NCBI GenBank assembly: GCA_963749915.1
Contig: CAVVOP010000019.1
Location: 96,001 to 160,000, forward strand
DNA: 64,000 nt
Direction of reading: 5' to 3'
Origin: an uncultured cyanobacterium
Lineage (GTDB): Bacteria > Cyanobacteriota > Cyanobacteriia > Cyanobacteriales > Cyanobacteriaceae
The notes under the pieces: model-generated
The model's database searches: none
What the model was told of the DNA's origin: nothing
The model's input: the letters and a program-made list of their open reading frames with translations, nothing else
Shown here: piece by piece, positions 17,241-32,861 of the stretch
Numbering within the stretch: the stretch's first letter is position 1
Layout: every line of letters begins with the position of its first letter
Made by a program: the position numbers and the translations under genes

Positions 17241-17469
17241 CTTCAGCCTCGCTCAAGTCAGCAATCAAATCATCCACTGTTCCTACTTTAGCAGTGCCAG
17301 AAGCGGTCAGCGTAGCTGCGCTGGCAATCGCTTCTTTTAATTCACGGGCATTAGCCAAGATTTCCGTCTCCCTTGTTTTCGCTCGATGTTGACGCAGAAT
17401 TTCTAACAAATCATCTTGTTCGTCTGGGGACAACTTCTCAAAAGACTTAATCATTTCTGCGATTGTCAT
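17212..17469 (-). CDS. Putative antitoxin partner of the RelE/YafQ toxin
   Basis: Small ORF directly upstream of the toxin; N-terminus (EMIKSFE.LS..EQD.LL.IL) shared with 16684-16959. Confidence 0.65.
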   Translation of the reverse strand: MTIAEMIKSFEKLSPDEQDDLLEILRQHRAKTRETEILANARELKEAIASAATLTASGTAKVGTVDDLIADLSEAEDEGCLELRV

Positions 17470-17551
17470 TACTCCACCTCCCAAGCAAAACTAACATTAT
17501 CCATCCTCTCGAATACCAAAAAAACACCATTACCGCAGATTTCCTCCAAAA

Positions 17552-17785
17552 TCAACCAGAAAAAGCAAAAACATCAACCAGAATTGATCTTTGAGGTGAT
17601 GGATTATTATTGAGCATTAAACGAATATTCTCTGCTGTTTCTGCGGTAAAGATTATTTCTCCACAACGAGAGCATACTTGTGCTGGGATATTTTCCACCA
17701 AAACTAACTTATCATTCAAATTAAAAGTTTGATTAACTAGAGTTTCCTGCCAATCATTAGCATTACAAACATGACAATTATCCAT
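17552..17785 (-). CDS. YgiT-type zinc finger protein (MqsA-like antitoxin)
   Basis: CxxC...ENIPAQVCSRCGE. Confidence 0.85.
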   Translation of the reverse strand: MDNCHVCNANDWQETLVNQTFNLNDKLVLVENIPAQVCSRCGEIIFTAETAENIRLMLNNNPSPQRSILVDVFAFSG

Positions 17786-18099
17786 TATGTCCTCCTTTGT
17801 TTATACTTAATCCATTCTTCAGATGATGGTTCATATAAAGTAATAATAGTTAAAAATTCTCCTTCTTTTCTCGATACCTGCAAATGTAAAACCCGATTAT
17901 TAATTGTTAACCCTAATAGCAAACAACTAGGAGAATATTTATCATCTGGGTAATTTTCAATAATAATCGCATTTTTTCCCGTTTCTTTAATCTCCTCTAA
18001 ACTGATATTCCTCTCTACCAAACGCTGTAAACCATGACGGGTAAATTGAATTTTGCCCTTAGTTAGTTGTTGCCTAATTTGCTTAAGGGATTTCATCAA
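17785..18099 (-). CDS. DUF4258 domain protein (putative toxin)
   Basis: FTRHGLQRLVERNI, IIENYPDDKYSPSCLLLG and IITLYEP motifs; coupled to the YgiT finger gene. Confidence 0.8.
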   Translation of the reverse strand: MMKSLKQIRQQLTKGKIQFTRHGLQRLVERNISLEEIKETGKNAIIIENYPDDKYSPSCLLLGLTINNRVLHLQVSRKEGEFLTIITLYEPSSEEWIKYKQRRT

Positions 18100-18826
18100 A
18101 AATCCCCCAAAGAAAAACCGACTTTCTCTAACTGTATTTTAATCTCTTTATCCAAAGCCAAACCTTCTCGCATTTGTTCTGCTAACTCTTTGGTTAAAAC
18201 TTCCATCGTCTCCTCAAAGGAAATACCATCATCCTCTTCATCAGGAATCCCTACATAACGCCCTGGAGTCAAGACAAAATTATGCTTCTCAATCTCCGCT
18301 AACGTTGCCGACTTACAAAAACCCTTAACATCCTTATAATTCCCCTCGCTCTCTGGGAGAGGGTTTAGGGGTGAGGGCTTCTTCTTCCACTCATGATAAG
18401 TATCGGCAATTTTGGCAATATTCTCATCACTAAAAGCACGATTACGACGATTGACCATATAACCTAACTCCGAAGCATCAATAAATAACACCTCACCCTT
18501 ACGAGATCGACTCTTATTCACGTTTTTATAGCGACTGAGGAACCATAAACAAGCAGGAATACCAGTGTTATAGAATAGCTGTGTCGGTAACATGACAATA
18601 CAATCCACCAAATCAGCTAAATCCTTATGAGCATCATTGAGAAAAGAACCTTCAGGATTCCACTTAATATTCGAGCCATCAATTCCCCTAATCGCCAAAT
18701 TCATCCGACATAACTTATAGGTGGTTTCGTTGCTCTCCTGCCCATAGATAGAAATATCATCCAACCGCCCTTGGTGAGCTTCAATAAACTTCTCACTCTG
18801 AACAAACATTCCCCCCGAACCGCAAA
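18096..18826 (-). pseudogene. hsdM: Type I R-M methyltransferase remnant
   Basis: CGSGGMFVQS, YGQESN, LFYNTGIPACLW and LTPGRYVG motifs; N-terminus and catalytic NPPF segment missing. Confidence 0.85.
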
Positions 18827-18980
18827 GGTTAATCTTACAGTTTCTCAGCCCCAACTGTCGAAAATATTATTTGCTCTGTTAGGTAACCTGCCGAATGTAG
18901 GTTCTAATTGTTTATTTGTGGGCATTTATCTTTTGACATAAAGTTTACTAAGAAGTCATTCAAATCTTCTATGTGGTTGT

Positions 18981-19320: not shown

Positions 19321-20367
19321 TTATAAATCTATTATTCCATATGTATATAACATAATAACAACCAATCCTATAGAGATAATTAATAATATAACCACGATAA
19401 AATTTAAACAACCTAAATTTCCTTTTATACTTTTAATAACATCTTGTAGCTTCTTAGTTTTTACAGAAAACAGATCATCTATTTGAACTATTTTTTCATC
19501 ATGAATTTTAAGTGATTGACGTATATTAAATATATTCTCAGAATTTAAACTTTCATTATTCTTAATGAGTTCATAAATATCTTTTATGTGTTCACTAATT
19601 TTATTGGTAAAATAGATATTTAGTTTATTTATATCTTGATCAACTTGATATTTGATATCAATTAGTTCACTTGTTATTTCTGATAAATTTTGTTCCAATA
19701 AATTTTGTTTATCTTGGGTTTGTAAATTACTATTATAGTGTTCATTTAAAAGTTTTATTAAATCTTGAATATTTTTGGGTATTTTACCCTCTTTGTTAGT
19801 AAGTTTTTCTAATTCTTCCAATAATTGATTGGCGGGAGAAATCTTACTGCGAATATCACCTTTAGCTTTTAATTGCCAAGATTCTCCACCGGGTAAAATA
19901 TCAACTTTACATGGTTTTTCTATACTGAAATTATTACTAATTGGGCTTACATCTCCTTGAATAATGAATAAAGATTCTATCTGATTTTTTAAACGATTAA
20001 AATTAATTTTACGATCACCATTGAATACTAAATAATAAGATTTACCATTTTCATTTTCTATTAAAATAATCCAATAATAACCACTATTTGTATATTCTAA
20101 ATAAATATTTTCATTATTATCACCCCTATAAGTATCTGCCGTCACGGAAACAGGAGTCCCATATTCCGCTAATATTTGAGGGGCATAATTATAAATATTA
20201 ATTAACTCCTCTTCACTAATATTTATCGGCTTTGGTTGGGGGTTAGATTTTCCACCTGTAACGATAACTCTTTGAGTCGATATTTCTAGTTCTTTTAGTT
20301 TTTTATCTACTTCTTGGAATTTGTTATATATGAGTTCTAGATTTTGACTTGGGGTGTTTTCATTCAT
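19321..20367 (-). CDS. Hypothetical protein: shared cluster domain, coiled coil, C-terminal TM anchor
   Basis: N-half paralogous to 30106-31176; hydrophobic C-terminal segment. Confidence 0.8.
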   Translation of the reverse strand: MNENTPSQNLELIYNKFQEVDKKLKELEISTQRVIVTGGKSNPQPKPINISEEELINIYNYAPQILAEYGTPVSVTADTYRGDNNENIYLEYTNSGYYWIILIENENGKSYYLVFNGDRKINFNRLKNQIESLFIIQGDVSPISNNFSIEKPCKVDILPGGESWQLKAKGDIRSKISPANQLLEELEKLTNKEGKIPKNIQDLIKLLNEHYNSNLQTQDKQNLLEQNLSEITSELIDIKYQVDQDINKLNIYFTNKISEHIKDIYELIKNNESLNSENIFNIRQSLKIHDEKIVQIDDLFSVKTKKLQDVIKSIKGNLGCLNFIVVILLIISIGLVVIMLYTYGIIDL

Positions 20368-20427
20368 AGTTTTTATATGGAAATAGTCAATAATTAATAA
20401 TGAAAATTATAAAAATTACCAATTAAA

Positions 20428-21891
20428 TTAATTTACTAAATCTATTTCTCCAGATTGAACTAATGCCCATTTGTTTTTAGTATTTTGTTTAACGATGGCA
20501 GGTTTTATTATACTAATTTGATTTCCTTTCAATGTTTGAGATAAATTACCATTACAAATAAATAATTGTGACTTTTTAATTTGTTGTAGAGTTTGAGAAT
20601 TAAATGGAGTATGAGGATCTAAAAATAGATAAAAGTCTCCGTTATTACTATTACTTGCCACAATATAGTATTCTCCTTGACGGTTGTTATTTTCTAATTC
20701 TACTAAACCTTCCCATGTACCCGCTAAAACTTTATTAACAGTATCTTTTGTCATACTTACCCGAATAGCATTTTTTAATAAGCCTTGAGGATTTTCTCTA
20801 TATAAATTTATCAATCTCACATCTTCTGACATTGGGGGAGGCGGCGGTGGTGTTTCTTTATGAATGGTATTAGAATATTGTTGTTGCAAAGATGTGGCAT
20901 CTCTATCACTATCATTCACTGATGGAGGGTTATTTATTTGAAATTCTAATTGTCTGAATTGTTGCTGAACTATAGAGAATTGTGTTTGAGAAAAAGTATT
21001 TAACTCATTAACTTTATCTTGTAAGATTTTTATTTGCTGGTTAAGATATTGATCTTTTCCTTCAAATTCTTCCATGGCATTTTTTTGATGTTTTATTACT
21101 CTAAGTAATTCTCCATTTTTCTTTTTTAGATCCCTAATTAGTAAAGTATTAATAATTGATAATATGGTAACTACTAATCCCAAAACTGAACCAGTTATTA
21201 TAAGTATTAAGACTAGTTTATTCCCTTGATTCTTGTTGTCATTTATATCTACTAAGTTTTCGCTATTAACTGATTTATTTATTGTTTTTATATGGTCTTC
21301 TATTTGTTTGTTTTTTTCGGAGAAAAATGTTGCTAAATTATCATAGGTTTTGTCAGTAAAATTACCGCAATCATTATCATTTTTATTCTGAACAACTCCT
21401 AACGGTATTTGAATATTCTCGCAAATTTCCTTTTCATCTAATTTACCATCCTCGAATAATTTAATAATAGAAGCTATATTTGGGTCTTTTGTTTCTCCTT
21501 CAGTTGCATCGTTGGGTATTTTTATTAACATTAATAAAGATTCAATGTTATTATCATCAACAACTATAGCTTTTAAGCTGTTTGTTGCAGTTGTTAAATT
21601 CTCCAAATCTTTTGGGATTTTCGGGTCAATATTTTCAATAATCTTCGGTTCTGGTGATTTTTCACTTTCTTTTTTTAGTTTTATTAATAATTGTCCATTT
21701 TCTTTGATATTTTCAGCAAAAATTTGATACTTATCTTCAATTTCTTTATTTAATTTTTCAATTTGGTATTTTTTCATTATTTCTTGTTGCGATATATCAT
21801 TCTTCCCAAAAATTGATTCCAAGTTACATCCTGTTAAAAGGAAGGGAAATAAAAAACTTAATAAAATTAATTTAATGGCTTTATTGTTCAT
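20428..21891 (-). CDS. Putative lipoprotein with internal TM helix, coiled coil and C-terminal shared domain
   Basis: Lipobox LLTGC; TM LVLILIITGSVLGLVVTILSII; poly-Pro linker. Confidence 0.8.
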   Translation of the reverse strand: MNNKAIKLILLSFLFPFLLTGCNLESIFGKNDISQQEIMKKYQIEKLNKEIEDKYQIFAENIKENGQLLIKLKKESEKSPEPKIIENIDPKIPKDLENLTTATNSLKAIVVDDNNIESLLMLIKIPNDATEGETKDPNIASIIKLFEDGKLDEKEICENIQIPLGVVQNKNDNDCGNFTDKTYDNLATFFSEKNKQIEDHIKTINKSVNSENLVDINDNKNQGNKLVLILIITGSVLGLVVTILSIINTLLIRDLKKKNGELLRVIKHQKNAMEEFEGKDQYLNQQIKILQDKVNELNTFSQTQFSIVQQQFRQLEFQINNPPSVNDSDRDATSLQQQYSNTIHKETPPPPPPMSEDVRLINLYRENPQGLLKNAIRVSMTKDTVNKVLAGTWEGLVELENNNRQGEYYIVASNSNNGDFYLFLDPHTPFNSQTLQQIKKSQLFICNGNLSQTLKGNQISIIKPAIVKQNTKNKWALVQSGEIDLVN

Positions 21892-21907
21892 AATAACCTC
21901 TGAGTAA

Positions 21908-22813
21908 TTAATAATTAAAATTTAAAATACCTTTATCGGATAACCGCCATTGATTTTGATTAACTTCAAAAACTTTGGCCGGCTTAATTACTTGAAAATT
22001 TTTGGATAAATGTTCTTGATAACCTCGTAACTCAAAAATAGTCTTGACCGTTTTAAGATTAGTATTAATTTTTAAATTTAAATCTGGTAACAAATAATAG
22101 CCCCCAGTTTCTAACTTTACAATCCAATAATCACTTTGATTCGAGTCTTGAAAAATTATTTCATTAGCTTTGTTTAGGTAAATATCTTCTAAAGTTTTTT
22201 TAGTGGGGGTAACTTTATAAGCATAATTAGCTAAAAAATTCGGATTATTATAATATTGCTCAATTACATATTGTTCATAATGATCTAGTTCCTGGTAAGG
22301 GGTTATATGTGGAGAATTAGTATTTTCTGAATTAGGGTTATTCTCGGTAAATTTTGTGTCCCCTAAATTGATAGAGTTAAAAGTTTCCATAGATGTTGAT
22401 TGGGTTTGAATTGATAAATCCTTAAGAGATTCTCTGACAATTTTTTTTATTCGACTGTATAAATCTGCTAGAATTTCTTGTTTCAGATTGCTAGATTGAC
22501 TATCCTGATTGGATAAATCATCTACTTGCTTTTCAAGTTCAGAAAGACGAATTTTTAATTCTAATAACTCATTGACCAAATTCTGGGATTCTTCCATTTT
22601 TTTTCTCAACTCATTTCTTTCTTTTCTATAATTATTTGCCCTGTAACAGGCAATTCTTGCCCAATCTTCATTTTTTTTGAGGATTTGTGCCGATGAAATT
22701 TTTTGATTTCCTGAATATAAAGTTAAATCCCAATTACAATATGCACATTCCCCTTGATTTTTTACATATTCAACACCACAAATAGGACATTTTTTTTTGT
22801 TAGCTGAAAACAT
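21908..22813 (-). CDS. Zinc-ribbon / coiled-coil protein with C-terminal shared domain
   Basis: CPICG...CAYCNW; heptad-rich middle region. Confidence 0.8.
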   Translation of the reverse strand: MFSANKKKCPICGVEYVKNQGECAYCNWDLTLYSGNQKISSAQILKKNEDWARIACYRANNYRKERNELRKKMEESQNLVNELLELKIRLSELEKQVDDLSNQDSQSSNLKQEILADLYSRIKKIVRESLKDLSIQTQSTSMETFNSINLGDTKFTENNPNSENTNSPHITPYQELDHYEQYVIEQYYNNPNFLANYAYKVTPTKKTLEDIYLNKANEIIFQDSNQSDYWIVKLETGGYYLLPDLNLKINTNLKTVKTIFELRGYQEHLSKNFQVIKPAKVFEVNQNQWRLSDKGILNFNY

Positions 22814-22916
22814 AATTTCATGGACTAATGTTAATAGTATTTACCCTAAAATGGAGGCTAATTTTGATCCTCCCAACCCCCCCATCACATCAATAAGGGG
22901 GCAATGGATAGGATGA

Positions 22917-25900
22917 TTAATCTTTATAAGAGTCTGCCCATCTTCTGCCTAGAACATGGAGTAAGGATTTTAAACCCATAATAAAGGGGGTTTTTTCCCT
23001 GATATTTTTGGCATCTCCTCTCACATCTAGTAATTCATTTTCCAGGTGATATTTGACCTCTCGCCACAATTCACTGTTTTTATCCTCTTGAGCCGAATCT
23101 TTTTCGTTTTTTTCCGCCGGTTTTTGGGGTTTATAATCTGATTTTGCTAAGGGTTTAATAGTTTCCAAATTTAAAGATTTGATCCCCCCATGAAACTCGT
23201 ATAAAAATCGCTCTAAATGATCGAGGTTAGGAATATCAAACTTGGTAATATTACCCTCTAAATGGAGGCGAGATTGCCAGTTATTTTTCTCCTGAAATTC
23301 CTCATCATCATCATGATATTCGACATAGTAATCCTCTCCGGCGATGGGTTGTTTTTCCTTGTTTTCAGTCATTCCCGTTAATTCCGTTTGACTGAGAACT
23401 AAACCACAGGCTACTTCATGTTTCGGACGAGTGCTAAGGCGTGTTTTTTCGTGAGTATCTTTGAACCCTGAGCCTTTACTTAACATCAGACTAAGTAGTT
23501 TATTAAACTCGGTATTTTGGTCAAATTTACCCGTAGGAGAAAGCCAATGTAAGAAGCGAGACGCATTACCGCCAATATAAACAGGGGTAATCTGATCCTT
23601 ACTATATTTGCCTTGTTTATGAAGTACTTGCAAAATTAGACCAACATAGTAATATAAACCAGCAACTCCGATGGCCGTGAGGGTGACTAAACGCTGAAAA
23701 TACTCATCCTCATTTTTGTAGATCCGTTTTTTATTTAACCATTCCTCTGCCTTATGACGCAAAGCCACATCAATATTGGTCATGATGGAATATTCGCTTA
23801 AACCTGTCCAATCATTGGGGGTAAATTCCTTCATCAACTTTTGGGCGTAACGGGGATTCATGGCGATAATCTCCGAAAAAATATTTCTTCCAGCTAATAA
23901 GACCGAACATTGATAAACGATTTTGCGGTTTTCCCAAATAGATATATCTGAAGTGCCGCCTCCCATGTCAATACAAGTACTGCGAATTAGAGGATGTTTT
24001 TCTTTATCGTTGAAATATTGAGCTAAGGCTACGCTTTCTGTACAAAAACGCTGAGTATCATCAATGGTAGGACAAGAATAGGTTATCCCTGTTTTCGGGC
24101 TTAATTCTTCGGCAATTTCTTCCCAGTTACGATGAAATGTGGTCACGTTGGTATTGGAAAAAGCACTGGGATAAGATATACACCATTCAATAGTATTCAT
24201 CCCGGCATGAACCGCTAAAGCCGAGATTTGTAAGGATAAATGACGGAGAAAAACCTTAGAATATCTAAGATTTGACCATTTCAGATCTAATTTTATCCAT
24301 TGTTTATTGGGATCAAATTCCGTGGGATCGGGGACAAAGATACGACCATCTAAAATGGGTTGTAATTCTCCCTCATCTTCACCGTTTTTCGTGGTAAGTA
24401 CTGTGCACAATGGTAAAGGATCCTCAGACGGCAGAAATTGGGCAGGGATAAAACTTTCAATTAAAGCAGGGAAACGAGTGGCGATAGGACTTTCAGTTAT
24501 ATTCAGTTGTAAATTTTTGTTGATATCCAGGGGAAAATCACCGCTATTGTCACCTTTAACATAAACGTTAGTAAAAGATGTACCAAAGTCAACCCCCACT
24601 CGCCATGTACCTCGTGAGTTAATTTCTGGAGGAGTTGACAGTAAAATTAAGCCAATGTCCCGATAGTAGCTATCTTTACACACCACATGGGTAGGCATTT
24701 CTTGAAGGGTGGAAAGTTGGTATGATCCTGTACCATCAGGGGCTTTGAAACTTCGGGCTTGTTGGTTAGGGAAGTAAACTTTAAAGGTCTCCTCTCCATA
24801 GTCACCATCATAGTAAAAAGTATAGTATTGTTGCCAATTTTTTGCTCGAAAGTTAGGCCAAACCGTTAACACAGGTAAATATTTGATGGCATTTTCTTCC
24901 TGGAGAATATACTCTTTTTGGAGGCGGTAACTTTGGAATTGATTTTGATTAGGGATACCTGATAGGGGAATGGTCAAGGTTATACGAATTCCCTGCCCAT
25001 TAATATTATTAAAAGGCTCTAATTGAATTTTACCGATCAGATCTTCGGGGGTAAAGTACCTTAATAAAATCGGATTGAGGGGGATTAGGGGAGTTACTTT
25101 TTCGCCGTTAAAGGTTATCGGTAGGGTTGTTTTTGGTAGTAAACCTCCGGGTAATGCGTCTTCGAGATCTAAAAATCCTAATTCTTCTAAAAATAATTCT
25201 TCGGAGGTAATCCAATTCACATCATCCCAAACTAATGTGCCATCTCGCAGATCTTTTACGTTTAAGGAGGCTAAAGTGCGATCTTTGTGTACCCAAATAT
25301 TTTGTTTGGGTTGTCCCCAATATTCAGCGATATTCTCATCGATGATAATCAGGGGTTTAGCGTTAGTTTTGATGGCACTGGGAATTACTCTAAGATTAGA
25401 GGGTTTAGGGGGAATTTTGATGGGTTGATTGAGTAAAATTAACGCTCCTCGGTTAATGGATTCACCGAAAAAGTTGGGATTATCACTAAGATTTAAAGGG
25501 GGTATTCCTTGATCATTGATTTGTAAATCCTTACGGAATTGACTGATTAACCCCATCATTTTATTGAGGGCGATCGCAGTGCCATTATAGGCGACGAGAT
25601 TATTTTGGATATTTTCTAACCAACGCCACAATAATTCCTTCGATTCTTGATTCAAATAAGGTTCAGGGCTTACTAACATCCCATCTTGCCACCACCGCAA
25701 CCCGTCCCATTTTCCTTCCTCCGAGGTACAAACAAGGGTACTCGGGCTTGTCATTCCCACTGTTTTACCATTCCACAGGAACACATAAACTTCTTCCCAA
25801 GGGTTTTTATTATCTCTGGTGTAAAGGGCGTTAACAGGTTCAGGCATTAGTTGATAAAGGGCATCTCCAAAGGGTTGGAATCGTTGTTGAGAGAGATCTA

Positions 25901-26207
25901 AAAACTGGACTTTTAAATCGAATCCTTCTACTTCCGCCAAGGCGATCGCGGCCATCATCCCTCGCCATTGTGCCACCATCGCCTTATGAATGGGGTGATT
26001 AGTGTCATAAAGTGCCATTTCCATGATCAGAGGACGTGCCCACATGGTAGGGACGGAACTGACACTTTTAATAACTCCTGGGGCTTGATAATCGAGGCTA
26101 TCGGCTACATCTCGAAAGGCATTATCCCCCCTGCCTTCCCATTGTCCGGGTTGCCCTCTAGTAATGTTGGTATCGTCTTTTAACTTCGATAACAGTAAAT
26201 CTGCCAT
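22917..26207 (-). CDS. Large protein with C-terminal actin/Hsp70-fold ATPase domain
   Basis: GVDFGTS (phosphate 1), ESVA (connect 1), IDMGGGTSD (phosphate 2), IGGNASR (adenosine), PKHEVACG (connect 2). Confidence 0.85.
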   Translation of the reverse strand: MADLLLSKLKDDTNITRGQPGQWEGRGDNAFRDVADSLDYQAPGVIKSVSSVPTMWARPLIMEMALYDTNHPIHKAMVAQWRGMMAAIALAEVEGFDLKVQFLDLSQQRFQPFGDALYQLMPEPVNALYTRDNKNPWEEVYVFLWNGKTVGMTSPSTLVCTSEEGKWDGLRWWQDGMLVSPEPYLNQESKELLWRWLENIQNNLVAYNGTAIALNKMMGLISQFRKDLQINDQGIPPLNLSDNPNFFGESINRGALILLNQPIKIPPKPSNLRVIPSAIKTNAKPLIIIDENIAEYWGQPKQNIWVHKDRTLASLNVKDLRDGTLVWDDVNWITSEELFLEELGFLDLEDALPGGLLPKTTLPITFNGEKVTPLIPLNPILLRYFTPEDLIGKIQLEPFNNINGQGIRITLTIPLSGIPNQNQFQSYRLQKEYILQEENAIKYLPVLTVWPNFRAKNWQQYYTFYYDGDYGEETFKVYFPNQQARSFKAPDGTGSYQLSTLQEMPTHVVCKDSYYRDIGLILLSTPPEINSRGTWRVGVDFGTSFTNVYVKGDNSGDFPLDINKNLQLNITESPIATRFPALIESFIPAQFLPSEDPLPLCTVLTTKNGEDEGELQPILDGRIFVPDPTEFDPNKQWIKLDLKWSNLRYSKVFLRHLSLQISALAVHAGMNTIEWCISYPSAFSNTNVTTFHRNWEEIAEELSPKTGITYSCPTIDDTQRFCTESVALAQYFNDKEKHPLIRSTCIDMGGGTSDISIWENRKIVYQCSVLLAGRNIFSEIIAMNPRYAQKLMKEFTPNDWTGLSEYSIMTNIDVALRHKAEEWLNKKRIYKNEDEYFQRLVTLTAIGVAGLYYYVGLILQVLHKQGKYSKDQITPVYIGGNASRFLHWLSPTGKFDQNTEFNKLLSLMLSKGSGFKDTHEKTRLSTRPKHEVACGLVLSQTELTGMTENKEKQPIAGEDYYVEYHDDDEEFQEKNNWQSRLHLEGNITKFDIPNLDHLERFLYEFHGGIKSLNLETIKPLAKSDYKPQKPAEKNEKDSAQEDKNSELWREVKYHLENELLDVRGDAKNIREKTPFIMGLKSLLHVLGRRWADSYKD

Positions 26208-26223
26208 TTTTCAAACCTCTTGA

Positions 26224-27723
26224 TTAAACTTTACAACAAACATAAATCGCTTTAGCCAATCCTGGGACTCCCTGATTTGGTTCGCCAAAATTACTGATAT
26301 CTAAATCACCGATGGCATTTTTGAGGGTCACTGCCGTATCTTGATCGACAATTTCCTTGGTACGGGAGTCATCCCATAATAAATCGCCGAACTTTTCACC
26401 TTTTAAACTACGAGGGTTAACAAAATACTCCCTTGCTTTAAATAAGCGTATGCGTTCGTTATCACAATAGTGAATATCCTTTAACCATCGCAAAAAATCC
26501 ACACACCAGTTATCAATACTTTTAATGGCTTCCTGTTGGTCAGAATCACTCAAATCGGGCAAATGTTTACGGGTTTTCATAAACAAGCTAATTCCCTGAA
26601 AGAATTTATCGAACCAAGCTAAACCGTTTAACTCCTTAATTCCTTGAACTTTAGCTGACTGTAACTGAGGTTGAAAATCCGCTAACCAAATAAAGGCAAA
26701 ACGGGCGGCATTGACCAACTTAATTTTTACCTCCTCAACTTGGGGTATATCATCCCATGTTAAAATCCCTGCCTGGGCACGACTCATGACATGGACACCT
26801 TTTTGGGGATGATCACAGAAAAAATGACGGGCGGCCAAACTGGCATAAAATTCCACAAAATGAGGGCGATTCACTTGAGTATCTTTCCCAACGCTAAACT
26901 CTCCCAATTTTTCCATACTCTGATTGCCGATTAAGTATTTGGTGTCAAATTGTTGGGCTTGTTCTCGGTAATACCTTAAGGCTGCCTCAGTATTCAGTAA
27001 AAACAGGTCTGAACTGGCGTAAACTTGCTCATTACCATTACCTTTGGGAAAATTAAAGTAAGGAAGGGCAAAAATACAACCGATTTTCACTCTATCCCTA
27101 ACGCCGTCTTTTTCTAATTTATTGGCAATCAACCGCCCAACAGTTGGCAAACCTGAAGCACCTGTTCCGCCGAAAATTGAGCCACACAGTAAAACTTTAG
27201 CATTACTGCCACTACTCGCATTGTTTTCGATTTCATTGATAAAACTTCGCCAAGGTTCTTCTTCTAGCCGTTCGAGATTTATTTGAGTCATAATACTCGA
27301 TCCAATGGCTGGTCTGCCTCGAAAACCAACTTCTAAAGAGACTTTTCGCTCATTCTCAGTATAGAGAACATCGAATAAATTAGCTAAGGATGGAGAAGTT
27401 TGTTTGAGGGTATCATAGGCAAAAAATGACCCCAGTTTGCGATCGGCATTATTTTTAGTAAAAGGTGACCAAACCCCATAAGATTCAATGTTAGTGGTCA
27501 TCCAAGGGCATTCTTGATGTTTTCCCTGCAATAACTGATAACATTTTTGATAGAGACTGAGGCTCGTTTGTGATCGCTGTAAATTACCGTTAGTTTCATC
27601 GGCATCAATAAATAAAATTCTTAACTTATTGGTAGGAATTAAACCCACGGAGGTCAATTGAATAATTGCCTCAACACATTTAGCACCTGTACCACCAATA
27701 CCCACAACATAAAAACTCATCAT
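26224..27723 (-). CDS. Divergent FtsZ/tubulin-superfamily GTPase
   Basis: VVGIGGTG (T1), IDAD, GFRGRPAIG (T3-like), GSIFGGTGASG (tubulin signature variant). Confidence 0.88.
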   Translation of the reverse strand: MMSFYVVGIGGTGAKCVEAIIQLTSVGLIPTNKLRILFIDADETNGNLQRSQTSLSLYQKCYQLLQGKHQECPWMTTNIESYGVWSPFTKNNADRKLGSFFAYDTLKQTSPSLANLFDVLYTENERKVSLEVGFRGRPAIGSSIMTQINLERLEEEPWRSFINEIENNASSGSNAKVLLCGSIFGGTGASGLPTVGRLIANKLEKDGVRDRVKIGCIFALPYFNFPKGNGNEQVYASSDLFLLNTEAALRYYREQAQQFDTKYLIGNQSMEKLGEFSVGKDTQVNRPHFVEFYASLAARHFFCDHPQKGVHVMSRAQAGILTWDDIPQVEEVKIKLVNAARFAFIWLADFQPQLQSAKVQGIKELNGLAWFDKFFQGISLFMKTRKHLPDLSDSDQQEAIKSIDNWCVDFLRWLKDIHYCDNERIRLFKAREYFVNPRSLKGEKFGDLLWDDSRTKEIVDQDTAVTLKNAIGDLDISNFGEPNQGVPGLAKAIYVCCKV

Positions 27724-27846
27724 TTTTCCCCTATTTTATTTAGACATCTCCAAAAAATTCAACTCGAAATCAATTGTAGGATTGGGAATCATTAATTTTA
27801 TCCACTATTACCTATCTATTCCCCGACTTCTGAAAAAAGTCCATGG

Positions 27847-28335
27847 TTAATTTCTATTCATGAGGCCATTAACCATTATCGCCCCAGGTACGGTTTTCTT
27901 TTTCAATAGTCCTGGGGTACTGGTAACGGTGGGTAGCCAATAAAGTAAAAATAAAGAGTTGAACAAGAATAACCCCATCATGGAAATTAAAGTTTCTTGA
28001 ATTAACTCCCCATTCTGATCTTGATTATTAAAGTAAACCGTTGCACTGACGATGATTACCAGTAGTAATAAACCTATATACCAGAGTAGCTTAAAGGAAC
28101 TGGCATTACCATGTTGATTTTTTAGGAGTACAACATACCATAAAATAGTAAAGCTAAGGGAAAAAGCAAAAATAATCCAAGCCGCTAAGGTATATTGTTT
28201 AACCCAATCACTGAAAGGAATACTCCTAATTACCCCGAAAAATTTTTGCTCATAAAGTAACGGTTGTAACCACATCATAAGTATAAAACCCACTAAGGCA
28301 AAGATGATGATTCTAATAATTTCGCCGACTTTCAT
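27847..28335 (-). CDS. Integral membrane protein (about 4 TM helices)
   Basis: Four hydrophobic segments; first gene of the leftward arm. Confidence 0.8.
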   Translation of the reverse strand: MKVGEIIRIIIFALVGFILMMWLQPLLYEQKFFGVIRSIPFSDWVKQYTLAAWIIFAFSLSFTILWYVVLLKNQHGNASSFKLLWYIGLLLLVIIVSATVYFNNQDQNGELIQETLISMMGLFLFNSLFLLYWLPTVTSTPGLLKKKTVPGAIMVNGLMNRN

Positions 28336-28504
28336 TATTTTTAATGTCGATAATTAGGTTTAGTTTTGATACTAAAGTTGTTATACTGTAAAATATATAA
28401 AACTTCAATATCTATCTCAAATAAGAAACGCTATTTAATACTTATTCGACAACTTACGATATATTTACATTGTAAACGAACATATAGAAAACGATAGTTA
28501 ATTC

Positions 28505-30064
28505 ATGGGTAACGTTGGTAAAAATACCTTTAAATCCTTACTTTTTATTATTTTGTCCATATCTCTGTTGTCGAGTTGCCAAAAAACTCCCGAGGAAGAG
28601 TTAGCCTGTAATACAGATTCGAGACCAGCAAAAGTTAATATAGAAAATACCGATAGTAAATTAGATATATCCGTCAATGTGGATGGTAGTGATTCGATGG
28701 TGGGTTATGTAACTATTCCTAACAATAACTATAGTAAAGTCTTAGAATTAATAGCCAATGCCGTTATCAGTACCAATACGGTGAATGTAGAGTATAAGCG
28801 CATTGGAGATGATAAAACCCTCACCCGTAACGATTTCCGCAAAGACGCCACCTCTAAGGTTTTTTATGGTGGCAATGATAGCATTTATAAACCTGTTTCT
28901 AGTCCTATTCACTCTGCCATTACTCCCCCAGTGGCGGGAAAATATAAGTTAACGATTATTGTCACGGATTTAGAGGGAGATGATGGAGGAAAAATTGCCG
29001 AAATTTTAGCACAAAATTACTTAAATAATGATGAAAAAAATCGAGATTATACTGTCGGTATTTGGGGGGTAAAAAGTCAGTTTAACGGTACTATTTATGA
29101 TCCCAATACTGGCAGGGCTAAATTTAATTATAGTACCCAGGGAAAAAAAGCCGATGGTTTTCGTCCTTTCTATGTTTTATTTGTGGGTAAATATGATCAC
29201 ATCGCTAAATATTTTGATGAGTTTAAAAAACTAGATACTCAAATTCAAAATGATAGTCATATGTTTATTTTTCCTACTCAAAAAATGGTAGAAAATCCCA
29301 TTAATTTAGGTACTCTTGACGAGAGAAAAAATAATAGTAAATTACCACAAAATCAGCAATTAGAAAGAGTTTTTGCTCTACAGGATAATCATGTTATTGT
29401 TGACGTAAAAAATCCTCACAATCAACCTTACGAATTATTAAGTATAGTTAATGATAGCGATCCAAAACCGACTATTCATTATCAAGTTTCTTTTCCCCAA
29501 ATTAATAATATTAAAGAGGATAGTTATTCGTTATACATTGACGAAAACAACTTAAAAACTAAAACCAAAGTATTTACTTTTAACTCTAATAATCAAGTTA
29601 ATAAAGTAACGGAATCTACTCCCGAAGAATCAGAATCGGATACTGAGGAAAAAAATACTAAGAAAAAAGATCAACCTAAAAAAGTTGATAATGAATTAAA
29701 TAATGCCTATGAAAAAAAGTTCTTTAAACTCAATTCTAGTAATTCTTTACAACAGGGATTAGTAGTTAAAGATTTAAAGTTGGATAAGGAAAAAGAAACC
29801 TTACAATTTATCACCGATATTAATTTAAATAGTTTGCCAAATTCGGAAATTTATTTATTTGAAGTTGATTTAATTTTAACAGATTTAACAGGGTTAGACT
29901 GGTGGAATAGTTGGAGTACTAATAGTCAAAGTAATGATGGCTCAAAAACACAAAATTTGTCTATTTTTATGAATAAATTAAAGAGTTTAACATTGCAAAA
30001 TTTCAGCAATCAGGATGGGGATCCAGTCATTGGTACTTTTTGTTTTGCCCTTCAAAAAAATTAA
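28505..30064 (+). CDS. Lipoprotein with vWA-like domain
   Basis: Lipobox LLSSC; VDGSDSM (MIDAS DxSxS) and IIVTDLE. Confidence 0.75.
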   Translation: MGNVGKNTFKSLLFIILSISLLSSCQKTPEEELACNTDSRPAKVNIENTDSKLDISVNVDGSDSMVGYVTIPNNNYSKVLELIANAVISTNTVNVEYKRIGDDKTLTRNDFRKDATSKVFYGGNDSIYKPVSSPIHSAITPPVAGKYKLTIIVTDLEGDDGGKIAEILAQNYLNNDEKNRDYTVGIWGVKSQFNGTIYDPNTGRAKFNYSTQGKKADGFRPFYVLFVGKYDHIAKYFDEFKKLDTQIQNDSHMFIFPTQKMVENPINLGTLDERKNNSKLPQNQQLERVFALQDNHVIVDVKNPHNQPYELLSIVNDSDPKPTIHYQVSFPQINNIKEDSYSLYIDENNLKTKTKVFTFNSNNQVNKVTESTPEESESDTEEKNTKKKDQPKKVDNELNNAYEKKFFKLNSSNSLQQGLVVKDLKLDKEKETLQFITDINLNSLPNSEIYLFEVDLILTDLTGLDWWNSWSTNSQSNDGSKTQNLSIFMNKLKSLTLQNFSNQDGDPVIGTFCFALQKN

Positions 30065-30105
30065 ATAGATTTATGTAAATTTTATCGACGAAAAATTTAT
30101 AATCT

Positions 30106-31176
30106 ATGACTAATAATTATGATTTAGAAAAAATCTTCAGTTATGTACAAAAATTAGAGAAAAGAATTACTAAATTAGAATCAGAAAAAGCAATAATTGT
30201 TCATGGTCATTTAGCAAGTCAATCAGCAAAATCCCTGACAATTTCTTTGAATCAATTAATTAATGTTTATAACGATGTTTCTCATATTTTAGATGTTTAT
30301 GCTGTAACAGTTTCTTTATCCGCCGATAGTTATCGTCAACAAGTAAAAGATCAAGTTATATTAAATCAAGTAACAAGAGGAAATTATTGGGTTATTTTAT
30401 TGGAAAATGAAGAAGGAAAAAACTATTATTTATTACCCAATGCTAATATTAAACTCAGAATATACAGATTAAAAACTATCAGTAATTTATTTGCAATCAA
30501 AGGTGAAAATGATGGAAAACAAGAAGAATTTACTTTAATTAAACCTGCTAAATTAGAAATTTTATCCAGTGGTAATGAGTGGAGAATCAAGGAAAAAGGA
30601 GAGTTATTTTTAGGTAAGAAAAGCTCTACCCAAAGGTTAGTATCAGAGTTAGAAAAATTTACCGCACATGAAGACAAAATTCCCGCTAGTTTACAACAAT
30701 TGTTAAAAATTTTAACCAAAATAAATCAAGGTAATTCTCAGTTAGCCAAAGAGATTGAATTATTAGATAGTAGATTACAAAAATTAGAGCCTCAATACGT
30801 TAGGTTAATTAATTTATATTATAAGAATCCCCAAAAATTTGCTCAGTTAGAAGGAGGTAGTCAACGATTAAAAGTAACAAAACAGACGATTAAAGATTTT
30901 ATTCAAAATACCATGAATTCCGTTTATTTAGAAGTTAATGAAGCTGGAGAATATTTACTTAAAAAAGGAGAAAAAGATGAATATTTATTTCCAGATCCTC
31001 TCTTAATTTTTGATAAAATGACTTTATTATTTGCCCGTCAAGGAAAATTATTTATCATTGAAAATGAAATACCGATCGCGATTTTGGGCAAGGATATGAA
31101 AATCAAAAAACCTGCTAAGGTAAGAAAAAATGGTGATGTTTGGTTATTAATTGAATCGGGAGAAATAAGTTTATAA
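30106..31176 (+). CDS. Hypothetical protein with two copies of the shared cluster domain
   Basis: Two segments ending IKPAKL..W.IKEKGEL and KKPAKV..WLLIESGEI. Confidence 0.8.
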   Translation: MTNNYDLEKIFSYVQKLEKRITKLESEKAIIVHGHLASQSAKSLTISLNQLINVYNDVSHILDVYAVTVSLSADSYRQQVKDQVILNQVTRGNYWVILLENEEGKNYYLLPNANIKLRIYRLKTISNLFAIKGENDGKQEEFTLIKPAKLEILSSGNEWRIKEKGELFLGKKSSTQRLVSELEKFTAHEDKIPASLQQLLKILTKINQGNSQLAKEIELLDSRLQKLEPQYVRLINLYYKNPQKFAQLEGGSQRLKVTKQTIKDFIQNTMNSVYLEVNEAGEYLLKKGEKDEYLFPDPLLIFDKMTLLFARQGKLFIIENEIPIAILGKDMKIKKPAKVRKNGDVWLLIESGEISL

Positions 31177-31363: not shown

Positions 31364-32861
31364 CTATGCCTTACCCATAAGTGCTGAAATACCTACTATG
31401 ATTGTATTCTAGAAAAGTTAGTTTAAAGGAGAAAAATCATGCAATCATGGGCAGCAGAAGAACTAGAATACACTAATTTACCGGACAAACGATTAAACCA
31501 AAGATTGATAAAAATTGTGGAACAAGCAAGTGCGCAACCTGAGGCAAGCGTTCCTCAAGCAAGTGGTGATTGGGCTAATACTAAAGCCACTTATAATTTC
31601 TGGAATTCAGAAAAGTTTAGCAGTGAAGATATAATTGATGGTCATCGACTCAAAACAGCACAAAGAGCTTCACAGGAGGATGTAATCCTAGCCATACAAG
31701 ACACCAGTGACTTTAATTTTACTCATCACTTGAGCAAAAATTGGGACAAAGGCTTTGGACAAACCTGTTCTCAAAAATATGTGAGAGGGCTAAAAGTCCA
31801 TTCAACCCTTGCCGTCAGTTCACAAGGAGTTCCCTTAGGAATTTTAGACCTACAAATCTGGACCAGAGAGCCCAAGAAAAAGCGCAAGAAAAAGAAATCA
31901 AAAAGTAATACCAGTATTTTCCACAAAGAAAGTAAAAGATGGCTGAGAGGATTAGTTGATGCTGAATTGAATGGCGCTGACTTAGCCATTCCATCAACGA
32001 CAAAGATAGTCACGATTGCTGATCGAGAAGGTTATATGTATGAGCTGTTTGCTTTGGAAAGAGAACCCAACTCAGAATTATTAATTCGAGCTAACCACAA
32101 TCGTCCTGTCAATCATGAAATGAAATATCTGAGAGAATCTATCTCTCAAGCCCCAGAGGCCGGAAAATTAAAGGTTTCTGTGCCCAAAAAAGATGGTAAA
32201 CCTCTCAGAGAAGCCACTTTGACCATTCGTTGTGGGATGTTAACCATCTCTCCTCCCAGCAATAGTTCTCCAGGGAACAACCGCTCACCGATTAGTTTGA
32301 ACGTGATTTATGCTGTGGAAGAGAATTTCCCCGAGGGAGTCAAACCGATTAATTGGCTTTTACTGACTACTTTAGAGGTGAACGATTTTGAGGATGCTGT
32401 TGGTTGTATTCGTTGGTACAGTTATCGTTGGCTTATCGAGCGTTACCATTATGTCCTCAAAAGTGGTTGCGGCATTGAAAAACTACAACTAGAAACAGCA
32501 GCAAGAATTAAGAAAGCTTTAGCTACTTATGCCATCGTAGCTTGGAGATTACTCTGGCTCACTTATCATGCTCGAGAAAATCCGCAACTCAAGAGTGATA
32601 CAGTTTTAGAGCAACATGAATGGCAATCTCTTTACTGTCATTTCCATCGTACTTCTATAACTCCAGCTCAGCCTCCTTCCCTTAAACAAGCTATGGTTTG
32701 GATTGCCAAATTGGGAGGATTTTTAGGAAGGAAAAATGATGGTGAACCAGGTGTCAAAAGTCTTTGGAGGGGCTTGAAACGTTTACATGATATTGCTTCC
32801 ACTTGGAAATTGGCACATTCCTCTCCCTCTATAGCTTGTGAGAGTTATGGGTAAGGCATAG
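31364..32861 (+). mobile_element. IS4-family (IS50/Tn5-like) insertion sequence
   Basis: IR ctatgccttacccataa / ttatgggtaaggcatag; 10-bp TSD AATTTATAAG at 31354-31363 and 32862-32871. Confidence 0.95.
31439..32854 (+). CDS. IS4 family transposase
   Basis: DKRLNQRL, IQDTS, ADRE, YSYRWLIERYHYVLKSG and LGGFLGRKNDGEPG motifs. Confidence 0.93.
   Translation: MQSWAAEELEYTNLPDKRLNQRLIKIVEQASAQPEASVPQASGDWANTKATYNFWNSEKFSSEDIIDGHRLKTAQRASQEDVILAIQDTSDFNFTHHLSKNWDKGFGQTCSQKYVRGLKVHSTLAVSSQGVPLGILDLQIWTREPKKKRKKKKSKSNTSIFHKESKRWLRGLVDAELNGADLAIPSTTKIVTIADREGYMYELFALEREPNSELLIRANHNRPVNHEMKYLRESISQAPEAGKLKVSVPKKDGKPLREATLTIRCGMLTISPPSNSSPGNNRSPISLNVIYAVEENFPEGVKPINWLLLTTLEVNDFEDAVGCIRWYSYRWLIERYHYVLKSGCGIEKLQLETAARIKKALATYAIVAWRLLWLTYHARENPQLKSDTVLEQHEWQSLYCHFHRTSITPAQPPSLKQAMVWIAKLGGFLGRKNDGEPGVKSLWRGLKRLHDIASTWKLAHSSPSIACESYG

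What the first reader, a model, noticed from the sequence alone, without database searches (positions are those of the whole stretch)
22917..26207. 1096-aa protein: ~530-aa unknown N-terminal region fused to a full actin/Hsp70 ATPase motif set
Seen: all five actin-fold motifs in order from residue ~537 (GVDFGTS, ESVA, IDMGGGTSD, IGGNASR, PKHEVACG). No Hsp70 substrate-binding domain follows. The N-terminal half (SVPTMWARP...QWRGMMAAIAL) matches nothing I recognise. Inference: a distinct actin-like NTPase functionally coupled to the tubulin homologue.
Basis: partly seen in the sequence, partly recalled or inferred. Interest (0 to 1): 0.75.

Follow-up and report, generated by a model that had tools for sequence, protein, structure and literature searches.

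The report
Giant actin-fold ATPase docked to tubulin-like GTPase
This gene encodes a large, unnamed bacterial protein whose rear half is an actin/Hsp70-type ATPase and whose front end is predicted to clamp onto a neighbouring tubulin-like GTPase, forming the core of an unstudied, mobile, membrane-linked gene cassette that may serve cell defence.

Summary
The ORF is real, intact, 1096 aa, and lies on the minus strand.

Residues 1-530 fold confidently but match no family and no solved structure, apart from a weak Ig-like sandwich at 442-530.

The coupling to the tubulin homologue is supported:
- a Tubulin_2 gene lies directly upstream in 23 of 24 related loci;
- two natural end-to-end Tub-Act fusions exist;
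- a complex prediction passes (0.86 against best control 0.00) and uses the invariant N-terminal residues.

The cassette also encodes a small 4-TM protein, a lipoprotein with a MIDAS-like motif, and an array of proteins carrying a repeated ~120-aa unknown domain.

The cassette is patchy in cyanobacteria, plasmid-borne in some, and present in Prevotella. Distant versions sit in prophage or integrative elements beside trypsin-like protease, endonuclease and MotB/OmpA-like genes.

The protein belongs to no named family (MreB, FtsA, Hsp70 and SrfB cut-offs are all unmet). Its role is untested. A defence or conflict role is my leading reading at about 50%, with membrane remodelling as the main rival.

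The parts
22917..26207 (-). Act1096: the 1096-aa target protein (P0001), stop codon included
   Evidence: Full-length homologues. Model with pLDDT 91.3.
25713..26207 (-). Residues 1-165: the predicted tubulin-docking module. It comprises a conserved peptide (2-60) that has low confidence when the protein is modelled alone, plus the first alpha/beta subdomain.
   Evidence: pLDDT is 45-75 for residues 1-60 when the protein is folded alone. G21, W23, P53, W56 and R58 are invariant or nearly so. The predicted interface uses residues 2-60 and 101-164.
24885..25712 (-). Residues 166-441: a confidently folded mixed alpha/beta region with no detected relative
   Evidence: pLDDT is about 88-98. No PDB or BFVD match was found. 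The tool warns that this part was barely tested inside the 530-residue model.
24618..24884 (-). Residues 442-530: a beta-sandwich with Ig-like topology (weak, generic match)
23385..24614 (-). Residues 532-941: ASKHA (actin/Hsp70) ATPase domain carrying all five motifs
22920..23384 (-). Residues 942-1096: a conserved C-terminal extension made of a small beta-sheet (960-991) and three helices
   Evidence: Secondary structure. Conserved G957, E958, F1005, P1073 and F1075.
26224..27723 (-). Tub499: tubulin/FtsZ-like GTPase (Pfam Tubulin_2), the predicted binding partner
   Evidence: PF13809 at 31.2 bits against a cut-off of 27. It is the only Tubulin_2 gene in the genome. GGTGASG at 185-191 is invariant. 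Complex prediction.
27847..28335 (-). TM162: a small membrane protein with four hydrophobic segments
   Evidence: Hydrophobicity scan. 75% identical to its counterpart in L002. BLAST counterpart found in 16 of 24 loci.
28505..30064 (+). p519: a divergently transcribed predicted lipoprotein with a MIDAS-like DGSDSM (60-65) and TD (154-155). It is vWA-like at motif level only.
   Evidence: C25, D60, S64, T154 and D155 are invariant in 18 homologues. Homologue present in 18 of 24 loci. vWA not established: VWA_2 hit in 1 of 18 members at E 0.07; hhalign probability 21%.
30106..31176 (+). p356: carries two copies of the repeated ~120-aa unknown domain (50-167 and 234-355)
   Evidence: My own HMM.
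21908..22813 (-). Zn301: N-terminal CxxC...CxxC zinc-ribbon-like motif, coiled coil, and the repeated domain (183-299)
   Evidence: Sequence. Domain. 34% identical to its counterpart in L004.
20428..21891 (-). p487: N-terminal lipobox-like signal (LLTGC), one transmembrane segment (226-244), coiled coil, and the repeated domain (360-484)
19321..20367 (-). p348: the repeated domain (54-172), coiled coil, and a C-terminal transmembrane anchor (317-335)

Best explanation
Act1096 is the ATPase subunit of a two-NTPase, membrane-tethered module.

Shown by computation: residues 532-941 form a complete actin/Hsp70-type nucleotide-binding fold with intact catalytic residues. The protein belongs to a large unnamed family that is inherited together with a Tubulin_2 GTPase.

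[quoted passage not shown] This would couple a GTP-driven and an ATP-driven switch in one complex.

Inferred:
- The rest of the protein (166-530 and 942-1096) is a platform for proteins carrying the repeated ~120-aa domain. Several of these are anchored in the membrane.
- A 4-TM protein and a periplasmic MIDAS-motif lipoprotein link the complex to the cell envelope.

Biological role (inferred, about 50%): a mobile conflict or defence system. An envelope or invader signal would trigger nucleotide-dependent assembly of the Tub-Act core. The output would be structural in this cyanobacterial form. In distant forms it would be executed by attached protease or nuclease genes.
For: Fold:
- Model pLDDT 91.3, pTM 0.82.
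- Foldseek gives 367 matches at E<=0.001, led by BeeR and Hsp70 nucleotide-binding domains.
- Invariant D540, G542, E724, D747, G749, D754 and G880.

Coupling to the tubulin-like gene:
- A Tub homologue lies directly upstream in 23 of 24 distinct loci.
- Tub and Act identities fall together across loci (83/83%, about 50/49%, about 35/30%).
- The same gene order occurs in Prevotella, with Tub at E 1e-37 and Act at E 2e-30.
- The same order occurs in 7 of 9 IMG/VR loci.
- P0161 and P0173 are full Tub plus full Act in one chain.

Complex prediction: Act 1-500 with Tub499 scores 0.86 (runs 0.86, 0.88, 0.86), best of 3 controls 0.00. That mark was reached by 116 of 157 solved complexes and 2 of 215 mismatched pairs; these counts hold only roughly because my own alignments were used. 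The runs share at least 94% of contacts and partner pLDDT is at least 83. The interface contains the invariant Act residues 21, 23, 53, 56 and 58.

Link to the repeated domain:
- Present in 21 of 24 loci next to Act.
- Fused to the Act C-terminus in P0222.
- Replaces the docking module in the 976-aa second copy in L034.

Conflict or mobile character:
- Strong matches in 32 of 301 genomes of the phylum.
- 5 plasmids carry full-length copies.
- Flanking genes differ between loci.
- Decayed copies occur in L005 and L028, and G274 carries an in-frame TAG.
- P0112 carries Trypsin_2 plus VMAP-M1 at its N-terminus.
- Distant cassettes lie beside Mu-type transposase and CI repressor, between integrases, or near tail-fibre genes. 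They continue with Trypsin_2, Endonuclease_NS, and MotB_plug and OmpA-like genes.
- In the window itself the cassette lies between a Tn5-type transposase gene and degraded type I restriction-modification and toxin-like genes.
Against: - No experiment exists. ATP hydrolysis, GTP hydrolysis and binding are all predictions.
- PADLOC finds no known defence family in the cassette.
- The cyanobacterial form has no recognisable enzymatic effector.
- Of the 137 flanking ORFs in 24 loci, most are housekeeping genes and only about a dozen are defence- or mobile-related. There is no clear defence-island signal.
- The protease, nuclease and prophage contexts come from relatives only 20-24% identical over parts of the protein. 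They may not transfer to this copy.
- The vWA assignment of p519 rests on a motif alone.
- The fusions are rare: 2 of the 150 listed representatives. Related metagenome loci show separate genes.
- The complex prediction is the model's own confidence, not a measurement.
Confidence: 0.5

Rival explanations
1. The same Tub-Act complex exists, but it serves cell biology rather than conflict. It would be an accessory membrane-remodelling, vesicle-forming or envelope-organising cytoskeleton, as Makarova and Koonin proposed for FtsZl1 (Tubulin_2)-vWA-membrane protein operons. Act1096 would polymerise or scaffold at the membrane.
For: - The partner is a Tubulin_2 protein.
- The cassette has a MIDAS-motif lipoprotein and membrane proteins, like the FtsZl1 operons described in PMC2875224 (section 6 read; supplement 6).
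- The closest structural matches are filament formers: MreB, MamK, FtsA, BeeR and ParM.
- No enzymatic effector is found in the cyanobacterial form.
- Flanking genes are mostly housekeeping.
Against: - The distribution is patchy: 32 of 301 genomes.
- Copies are carried on plasmids and prophage-like elements.
- Decayed copies occur.
- The paralogue array diversifies rapidly.
- Distant forms are associated with, or fused to, trypsin-like protease and nuclease genes.
- The genome already has canonical MreB and DnaK genes.
Confidence: 0.27
2. The cassette is a DNA-segregation or maintenance module of mobile elements, analogous to TubZRC or ParMRC, with the tubulin-like and actin-like NTPases acting as partition motors.
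For: - Full-length copies occur on 5 plasmids, including a 47.5-kb mobilizable Gloeothece plasmid.
- Both NTPase superfamilies include plasmid partition motors. This point rests on established knowledge, not on a test here.
Against: - Most copies are chromosomal.
- The Gloeothece plasmid stretch already carries a ParA gene.
- No small DNA-binding adaptor gene is conserved in the cassette.
- The lipoprotein, 4-TM protein and membrane-anchored repeated-domain proteins have no place in a partition system.
- Act1096 is three times the size of ParM and is predicted to bind Tub as a heterocomplex.
Confidence: 0.06
3. Act1096 is a divergent Hsp70-type chaperone or an SrfB-type factor. It would act on client proteins without forming a stable complex with the tubulin-like protein, and the gene adjacency would reflect only co-regulation.
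For: - The phosphate-2 motif is Hsp70-like, and Hsp70 nucleotide-binding domains are among the best Foldseek hits.
- One of 30 family members touches the SrfB model (E 0.0056).
- The Atlas lists an SrfB cluster at 0.88, which the tool rates as a lead only.
- Two UniRef names in the family list read 'Molecular chaperone' and 'Ppx/GppA phosphatase domain'.
Against: - No HSP70 or SrfB hit reaches the cut-off.
- No substrate-binding domain is detected.
- No DnaJ- or GrpE-like gene is found in the cassette.
- Natural fusions and the passed complex prediction argue for a physical complex.
Confidence: 0.07

Closest known systems
FtsZl1 (Pfam Tubulin_2) - vWA - membrane protein operons (Makarova and Koonin 2010, PMC2875224; I read passages, section 6, supplement 6 and rows of supplement 5)
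   Same: The cassette has a Tubulin_2-family GTPase next to a predicted extracytoplasmic protein with a MIDAS-like motif and next to membrane proteins. Its distribution is patchy. The genome keeps its canonical division genes.
   Different: - That paper lists no actin/Hsp70-fold partner. The associated families A1-A2 and B1-B9 in supplement 6 are membrane, low-complexity or FN-type proteins.
- Its cyanobacterial example, Ava_1847-1850, has a 1085-aa FtsZl1 with vWA, B7 and a MotB-like gene.
- Here the tubulin-like protein is 499 aa and is paired with a 1096-aa ASKHA ATPase and an array of repeated-domain proteins.
DO-GTPase/GAP1-N2 conflict systems with tubulin or HSP70 components (Kaur, Burroughs, Iyer, Aravind 2020, PMC7159879; passages read)
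   Same: - Tubulin-family and Hsp70-family NTPases appear with vWA and transmembrane proteins in variable, multi-gene predicted conflict systems.
- A family member here (P0112) carries the VMAP-M1 and trypsin modules that the paper describes.
   Different: - In that paper the tubulin and HSP70 themes are non-overlapping. They centre on P-loop DO-GTPases plus GAP1 in Firmicutes and Actinobacteria.
- None of the eight cassette proteins here has a Walker A motif or any GTPase or GAP1 Pfam hit.
- Here the tubulin-like and actin-fold proteins occur together, in Cyanobacteria.
MreB / FtsA / MamK / ParM / BeeR bacterial actins and the Hsp70 nucleotide-binding domain
   Same: - The same five nucleotide-binding motifs, with the catalytic Asp and Glu conserved.
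   Different: - Sequence scores are below every family cut-off.
- The domain is embedded between a 530-aa N-terminal region of unknown folds and a 155-aa C-terminal extension.
- It is predicted to bind a tubulin-like GTPase.
- Polymerisation was not tested.
SrfB (Pfam PF07520), a roughly 1000-aa actin-fold protein of srfABC operons. The operon description is recalled, not from a call.
   Same: It is also a giant protein with the phosphate-2 motif deep inside the chain. SrfB profile positions 564-617 of 992 align with positions 753-800 of family member P0232.
   Different: - Only 1 of 30 members touches the model, at 15.2 bits against a cut-off of 27.1.
- There is no similarity outside that motif.
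- No SrfA- or SrfC-like neighbours were detected.
Zorya-type envelope-sensing defence (ZorAB stator plus effectors). The system is recalled from memory and from earlier notes of this scan.
   Same: Distant relatives of the cassette carry MotB_plug and OmpA-like genes plus protease or nuclease genes downstream of Act. This is an envelope-anchored module with cytoplasmic executors.
   Different: - This window has no MotA- or MotB-like gene.
- The only PADLOC ZorA hit is a coiled-coil match at E 0.0021 to Zn301.

Membership tests
ASKHA (actin/Hsp70/sugar-kinase) superfamily | Five nucleotide-binding motifs in order: phosphate 1, connect 1, phosphate 2, adenosine, connect 2 | tested here: met
   Positions 538-544, 724-727, 746-754, 878-884 and 928-935. 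D540, E724, D747, G749, D754, G880, K929 and E931 are invariant in 70 sequences.
ASKHA (actin/Hsp70/sugar-kinase) superfamily | Two-lobed RNase-H-like duplicated fold | tested here: met
   [not shown]
MreB/Mbl (PF06723) | Score at or above the Pfam gathering cut-off (27 bits) | tested here: not met
   17.9 bits, covering residues 745-782 only. A genome-wide PF06723 search lists 8 places and this gene is not among them.
FtsA (PF14450; TIGR01174) | Score at or above the curated cut-offs | tested here: not met
   17.6 bits against 31.8. 15.1 bits against 175.85.
Hsp70/DnaK (PF00012) | HSP70 model match, and a substrate-binding domain after the nucleotide-binding domain | tested here: not met
   No hit at E<=0.01. 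This gene is not among the 9 places found by PF00012 in the genome. Most structural rows end near residue 941.
SrfB (PF07520) | Score at or above 27.1 bits over the ~990-position model | tested here: not met
   No hit for P0001. 1 of 30 relatives hits at 15.2 bits over 54 profile positions. The genome search is uninformative because its controls did not ring.
FtsZl1-centred operon (Makarova and Koonin 2010) | A Tubulin_2/FtsZl1 GTPase in the operon | tested here: met
   PF13809 at 31.2 bits against 27 for the upstream gene.
FtsZl1-centred operon (Makarova and Koonin 2010) | An associated vWA-domain protein | tested here: inconclusive
   p519 has invariant DxSxS and TD motifs. However, VWA_2 hits only 1 of 18 members at E 0.07. 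hhalign against the genome's own vWA domains gives probability 21% over 29 columns. A PDB profile search gives 0 hits.
DO-GTPase/GAP1 system (Kaur et al. 2020) | A P-loop DO-GTPase and a GAP1 protein as the constant core | tested here: not met
   No Walker A motif in any of the 8 cassette proteins. No GTPase or GAP1 family in Pfam scans. Whether Pfam holds GAP1 models is recalled, not checked.
Known anti-phage systems (PADLOC-DB 2.0) | Any cassette protein matching a system model | tested here: not met
   No families for Act, Tub, TM162, p487 or p519. Only coiled-coil-type hits at E 1.7e-4 to 1e-2 for Zn301, p348 and p356.

The most novel reading that the evidence does not exclude
The tubulin-fold GTPase and the actin-fold ATPase form one obligate heterocomplex. 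This would be the first machine in which the two great cytoskeletal NTPase superfamilies are physically coupled. The Act N-terminal peptide would sit on the nucleotide-sensing loops of the tubulin-like protein. The complex, tethered to the envelope through the repeated-domain proteins, would act as a new class of envelope-triggered anti-phage or anti-plasmid system, spread by plasmids and prophages.
Probability: 0.3. Interest if true: 0.9.

Novelty: new variant of a known kind. Interest (0 to 1): 0.72.

Why it matters
Actin-like and tubulin-like NTPases are normally studied as separate filament systems. A conserved, sometimes fused, pair predicted to form one complex would be a new way of wiring the two engines together.

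The family is large: 1384 clusters at 50% identity. It is unnamed in Pfam, NCBIfam and PADLOC, and RefSeq annotates it as 'hypothetical protein'. It reaches from Cyanobacteria to Bacteroidota and Nitrospirota and into prophage-like elements.

If it is a defence system, it adds a new architecture with no classical sensor. If it is a membrane-remodelling device, it makes the long-standing FtsZl1 prediction of 2010 testable, because there is now a defined binding partner.

The roughly 440-residue N-terminal region and the repeated 120-aa domain are confidently conserved. No known fold was found for either.

Tried and rejected
Family and structure searches
- PADLOC and NCBIfam scans of eight cassette proteins gave nothing above the cut-offs.
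- PDB sequence-profile searches with the p519 alignment and with the Tub alignment each gave 0 hits at E<=1.
- hhalign of p519 against five vWA domains from the same genome aligned only the MIDAS strand, at probability 21%.
- The Atlas gave only unnamed clusters for Act, with SrfB at 0.88 and Ppx/GppA at 0.93 as leads. It gave nothing usable for p356.
- A search for fused forms longer than 1919 aa found none. The tool itself calls this weak evidence.
- The SrfB family search of the genome did not ring its controls, so it is not informative.

Distribution
- tblastn against 50,697 phage records gave no match.

Expression
- No RNA holder was listed, so read laying was not run and nothing can be said about expression.

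Defence-island test
- Of 150 flanking ORFs, I scanned 137. I dropped 13 that touch a locus end.
- They are mostly housekeeping genes, and the flanks are not conserved between loci. This shows mobility but no clear defence-island enrichment, and no baseline was computed.

Literature
- Searches found no paper describing a Tubulin_2 plus giant actin-fold pair.
- Subscription-only papers are not covered by these searches.

Errors
- Coordinate errors produced stop codons. I replaced them with the script.
- The alignment was too large. I cut it to 70 sequences.
Full report
**The gene**

The ORF at 22917-26207 is open only on the minus strand. It encodes 1096 residues, P0001. Its ATG at 26207 lies 16 nt after the TAA of the upstream gene, with AGAGG 8 nt before the start, so the two genes look like one operon.

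**The family**

A word-indexed search found 567 relatives at E<=0.001 among 8000 scored candidates. The 120 listed are almost all about 1075-1110 aa and cover 98-100% of the query. Where a source names them, the name is 'hypothetical protein' from cyanobacteria.

An exhaustive HMMER search over 1.84 billion representatives gave 1384 clusters at E<=1e-3, 1006 at E<=1e-10 and 502 at E<=1e-30. Most align over the whole length. The N- and C-terminal halves therefore belong together across the family.

In a 70-sequence alignment going down to about 25% identity, the following positions are invariant:
- D540, G542, K643, W644, E724, D747, G749, D754, G880, K929 and E931;
- a set of N-terminal residues: P53, W56, P122, W137, W172, W196, P376, P445, P451 and W458.

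Named members outside cyanobacteria include a Nitrospirota MAG. One member lies on a Synechococcus plasmid.

**Is the C-terminal half an actin fold?**

By sequence, only the phosphate-2 region touches known models, and it stays below their cut-offs:
- MreB_Mbl scores 17.9 bits against 27, and FtsA 17.6 against 31.8.
- Across 30 relatives, FtsA is touched by 16, MreB by 11, EutA by 3 and SrfB by 1.
- A family profile against PDB sequences finds BeeR (8r2n, E 5.8e-05), FtsA (1.2e-4) and MreB5 (2.4e-3).

The AlphaFold2 model of the whole protein is confident: pLDDT 91.3, pTM 0.82, with 872 residues at 90 or above.
- Foldseek against the PDB gives 367 matches at E<=0.001. BeeR (7.9e-07), Hsp70 nucleotide-binding domains, EutJ, MreB and MamK lead the list.

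Residues 532-941 are a complete ASKHA domain with intact catalytic positions.

The genome also has a canonical MreB and several DnaK genes. Neither the MreB nor the HSP70 model picks up this gene. It is an additional, distinct family.

**The N-terminal half**

Folded alone, residues 1-530 give pLDDT 91.5.
- Foldseek against the PDB finds nothing at E<=0.001.
- BFVD finds nothing at E<=0.001.

Residues 57-441 therefore have no detected relative. The caveat is that sub-domains were not folded and searched separately.

Residues 1-60 have low confidence when the protein is alone (pLDDT 45-75), yet they hold invariant residues. This pattern fits a segment that folds on a partner.

**The partner**

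The upstream gene (26224-27723, 499 aa) matches Pfam Tubulin_2 above its cut-off (31.2 against 27 bits). It is the only such gene in the genome. Its GGTGASG signature and its N-terminal GxGGxG are invariant in 22 homologues.

I compared 24 distinct related loci. There were 25 fetched loci, but L037 repeats L004.
- 23 have a Tub homologue directly upstream of Act. L043 lacks it.
- Tub and Act identities fall in step across loci.
- The pair, preceded by a small ORF and a ~500-aa ORF, is also found in Prevotella, with Tub at E 1e-37 and Act at E 2e-30 against my own HMMs.
- It is found in 7 of 9 IMG/VR loci.
- Two representatives, P0161 (1605 aa) and P0173 (1341 aa), are complete Tub followed at once by complete Act in one chain. 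They are 2 of the 150 listed, and related metagenome loci keep two abutting genes.

I ran a complex prediction of Act 1-500 with Tub499, using locus-matched alignments.
- The scores are 0.86, 0.88 and 0.86, against a best control of 0.00.
- This mark was reached by 116 of 157 solved complexes and 2 of 215 mismatched pairs. The counts hold only roughly because my own alignments were used.
- The runs share at least 94% of contacts, and partner pLDDT is at least 83.
- The interface uses Act 2-60 and 101-164, which include invariant G21, W23, P53, W56 and R58.
- On the Tub side it uses 100-143, 189-201, 220-222, 238-269 and 290-329, including part of the GGTGASG loop.

This supports binding. It does not show it.

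**The rest of the cassette**

Four other components are conserved around the pair.
- A 4-TM protein of about 160 aa, found by BLAST in 16 of 24 loci.
- A predicted lipoprotein, p519, with invariant C25, DxSxS and TD motifs, found in 18 of 24 loci. Its vWA nature rests on the motif only.
- An array of 2-7 genes per locus carrying a repeated domain of about 120 aa with no known relative. It is present in 21 of 24 loci, with 94 domain hits including the window's five.
- In the window this domain occurs in Zn301, p487, p348 and twice in p356. It is combined with a zinc-ribbon-like motif, coiled coils and single transmembrane anchors. Elsewhere it is combined with WD40 repeats.

Two observations point to physical association between this domain and Act. 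It is fused to the C-terminus of Act in P0222. It also replaces the first ~330 residues in a second, truncated Act copy (L034, 976 aa).

No cassette protein has a Walker A motif.

**Mobility and context**

Strong matches occur in 32 of 301 sampled genomes of the phylum. A 33rd match is a weak MreB-type hit.

Full-length copies lie on 5 plasmids. A sixth record, from Prevotella, gives a partial tblastn match. RefSeq calls the pair 'tubulin-like doman-containing protein' and 'hypothetical protein'.

Flanking genes differ from locus to locus and are mostly housekeeping. Among the 137 scanned there are about a dozen defence- or mobile-type genes: Uma2 (four), DDE transposase, a DNA methylase, PIN, AAA_23, NACHT-N, PD-(D/E)XK and MoxR. 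The 137 are what remained of 150 after dropping 13 that touch a locus end.

Decayed copies exist. Tub is split and Act truncated in L005, Act is split in L028, and G274 has an in-frame TAG.

In the window, the cassette (19321-31176) lies between a Tn5-type transposase gene (31439-32854) and fragments of a type I restriction-modification system, a DUF4258 protein and a PIN-Methylase_S ORF. More transposase fragments lie further out.

Distant cassettes on IMG/VR contigs sit in several mobile contexts:
- next to Mu-type transposition genes and a CI-like repressor;
- between two integrase genes;
- near tail-fibre and methylase genes.

These distant cassettes continue with Trypsin_2 peptidases, an Endonuclease_NS nuclease, and MotB_plug and OmpA-like genes. 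One family member, P0112, has Trypsin_2 plus VMAP-M1 in place of the first ~31 residues.

**Reading**

Solid:
- a new, large ASKHA family with a conserved tripartite architecture;
- it is genetically locked to a Tubulin_2 GTPase.

Likely:
- the two proteins form a complex through the Act N-terminus.

Open:
- the biological role.

Mobility, decay, diversifying paralogue arrays, protease and nuclease companions, and prophage positions favour a conflict or defence role, which I put at about 0.5. Against that stand the absence of any known defence family, the lack of an enzymatic effector in this form, and mostly housekeeping flanks. These keep the membrane-remodelling reading of Makarova and Koonin alive, at about 0.27. 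Partition and chaperone readings are weak.

**Comparison with the literature**

Makarova and Koonin 2010 (PMC2875224; passages, section 6 and supplements 5-6 read) describe FtsZl1-vWA-membrane operons but list no actin-fold partner.

Kaur et al. 2020 (PMC7159879; passages read) describe tubulin or HSP70 themes in DO-GTPase/GAP1 systems of Firmicutes and Actinobacteria. That core is absent here.

Santana-Molina et al. 2023 (PMC9871819; one passage read) set Tubulin_2 proteins aside as divergent.

My seven literature searches found no description of the pair.

Earlier notes of this scan describe the same or related modules in other genomes. I re-tested their main points here rather than relying on them.

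Noticed in passing
window 15257-18854 (minus strand): There are remnants of a type I restriction-modification system. One is a 252-aa ORF holding only the C-terminal part of N6_Mtase. Another is a 476-aa ORF combining a weak PIN match with a Methylase_S specificity domain. A DUF4258 ORF lies between them, and DUF4926 and DUF6883 small ORFs lie at 14592-15253. This looks like a degraded defence and toxin-antitoxin patch abutting the cassette.
   Followed up: partly
window 31439-32854 (+), 1839-3398 (-), 7146-7697 (-), 10293-10715 (-): There is a Tn5-type transposase right after p356, an IS66 transposase, and two DDE_Tnp_1 fragments. The first half of the window is rich in insertion sequences.
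   Followed up: no
window 39480-42155 (-): An 891-aa ORF carries the PHP, DNA_pol3_alpha and finger domains only. It is a DnaE that stops early. It may be the N-terminal half of a split (intein-type) dnaE, as known in cyanobacteria; that point is recalled, not tested.
   Followed up: no
window 44591-45280 (+): A 229-aa ORF joins Clp_N, part of AAA_2 and ClpB_D2-small. It appears to be an internally deleted Clp/ClpB-like remnant.
   Followed up: no
L003 13940-16165, L033 14735-16933, L034 6593-9523; also G116, G160, G296: Several relatives carry a second, shorter Act paralogue a few genes downstream. It starts at about residue 333 and so lacks the tubulin-docking module. In L034 it begins with the repeated ~120-aa domain instead.
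   Followed up: partly
L027 2087-4198 (-); P0310: Here repeated-domain proteins are fused to a C-terminal WD40 beta-propeller. This would fit a sensor or adaptor role.
   Followed up: no
L061 10253-15126; L055 9646-14397; L059 9601-14409: In distant cassettes on prophage-like contigs, Act is followed by a long coiled-coil protein, OmpA-like and MotB_plug proteins and a Trypsin_2 peptidase. In L059 it is followed by DUF4357 and an Endonuclease_NS nuclease.
   Followed up: partly
L068, L069, L071, L073 (about 4700-8470) and L076 (2777-5578): In one metagenomic lineage, an extra ORF of 933-1257 aa with no hit to my cassette HMMs sits between the p519-like gene and the small membrane-protein gene.
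   Followed up: no
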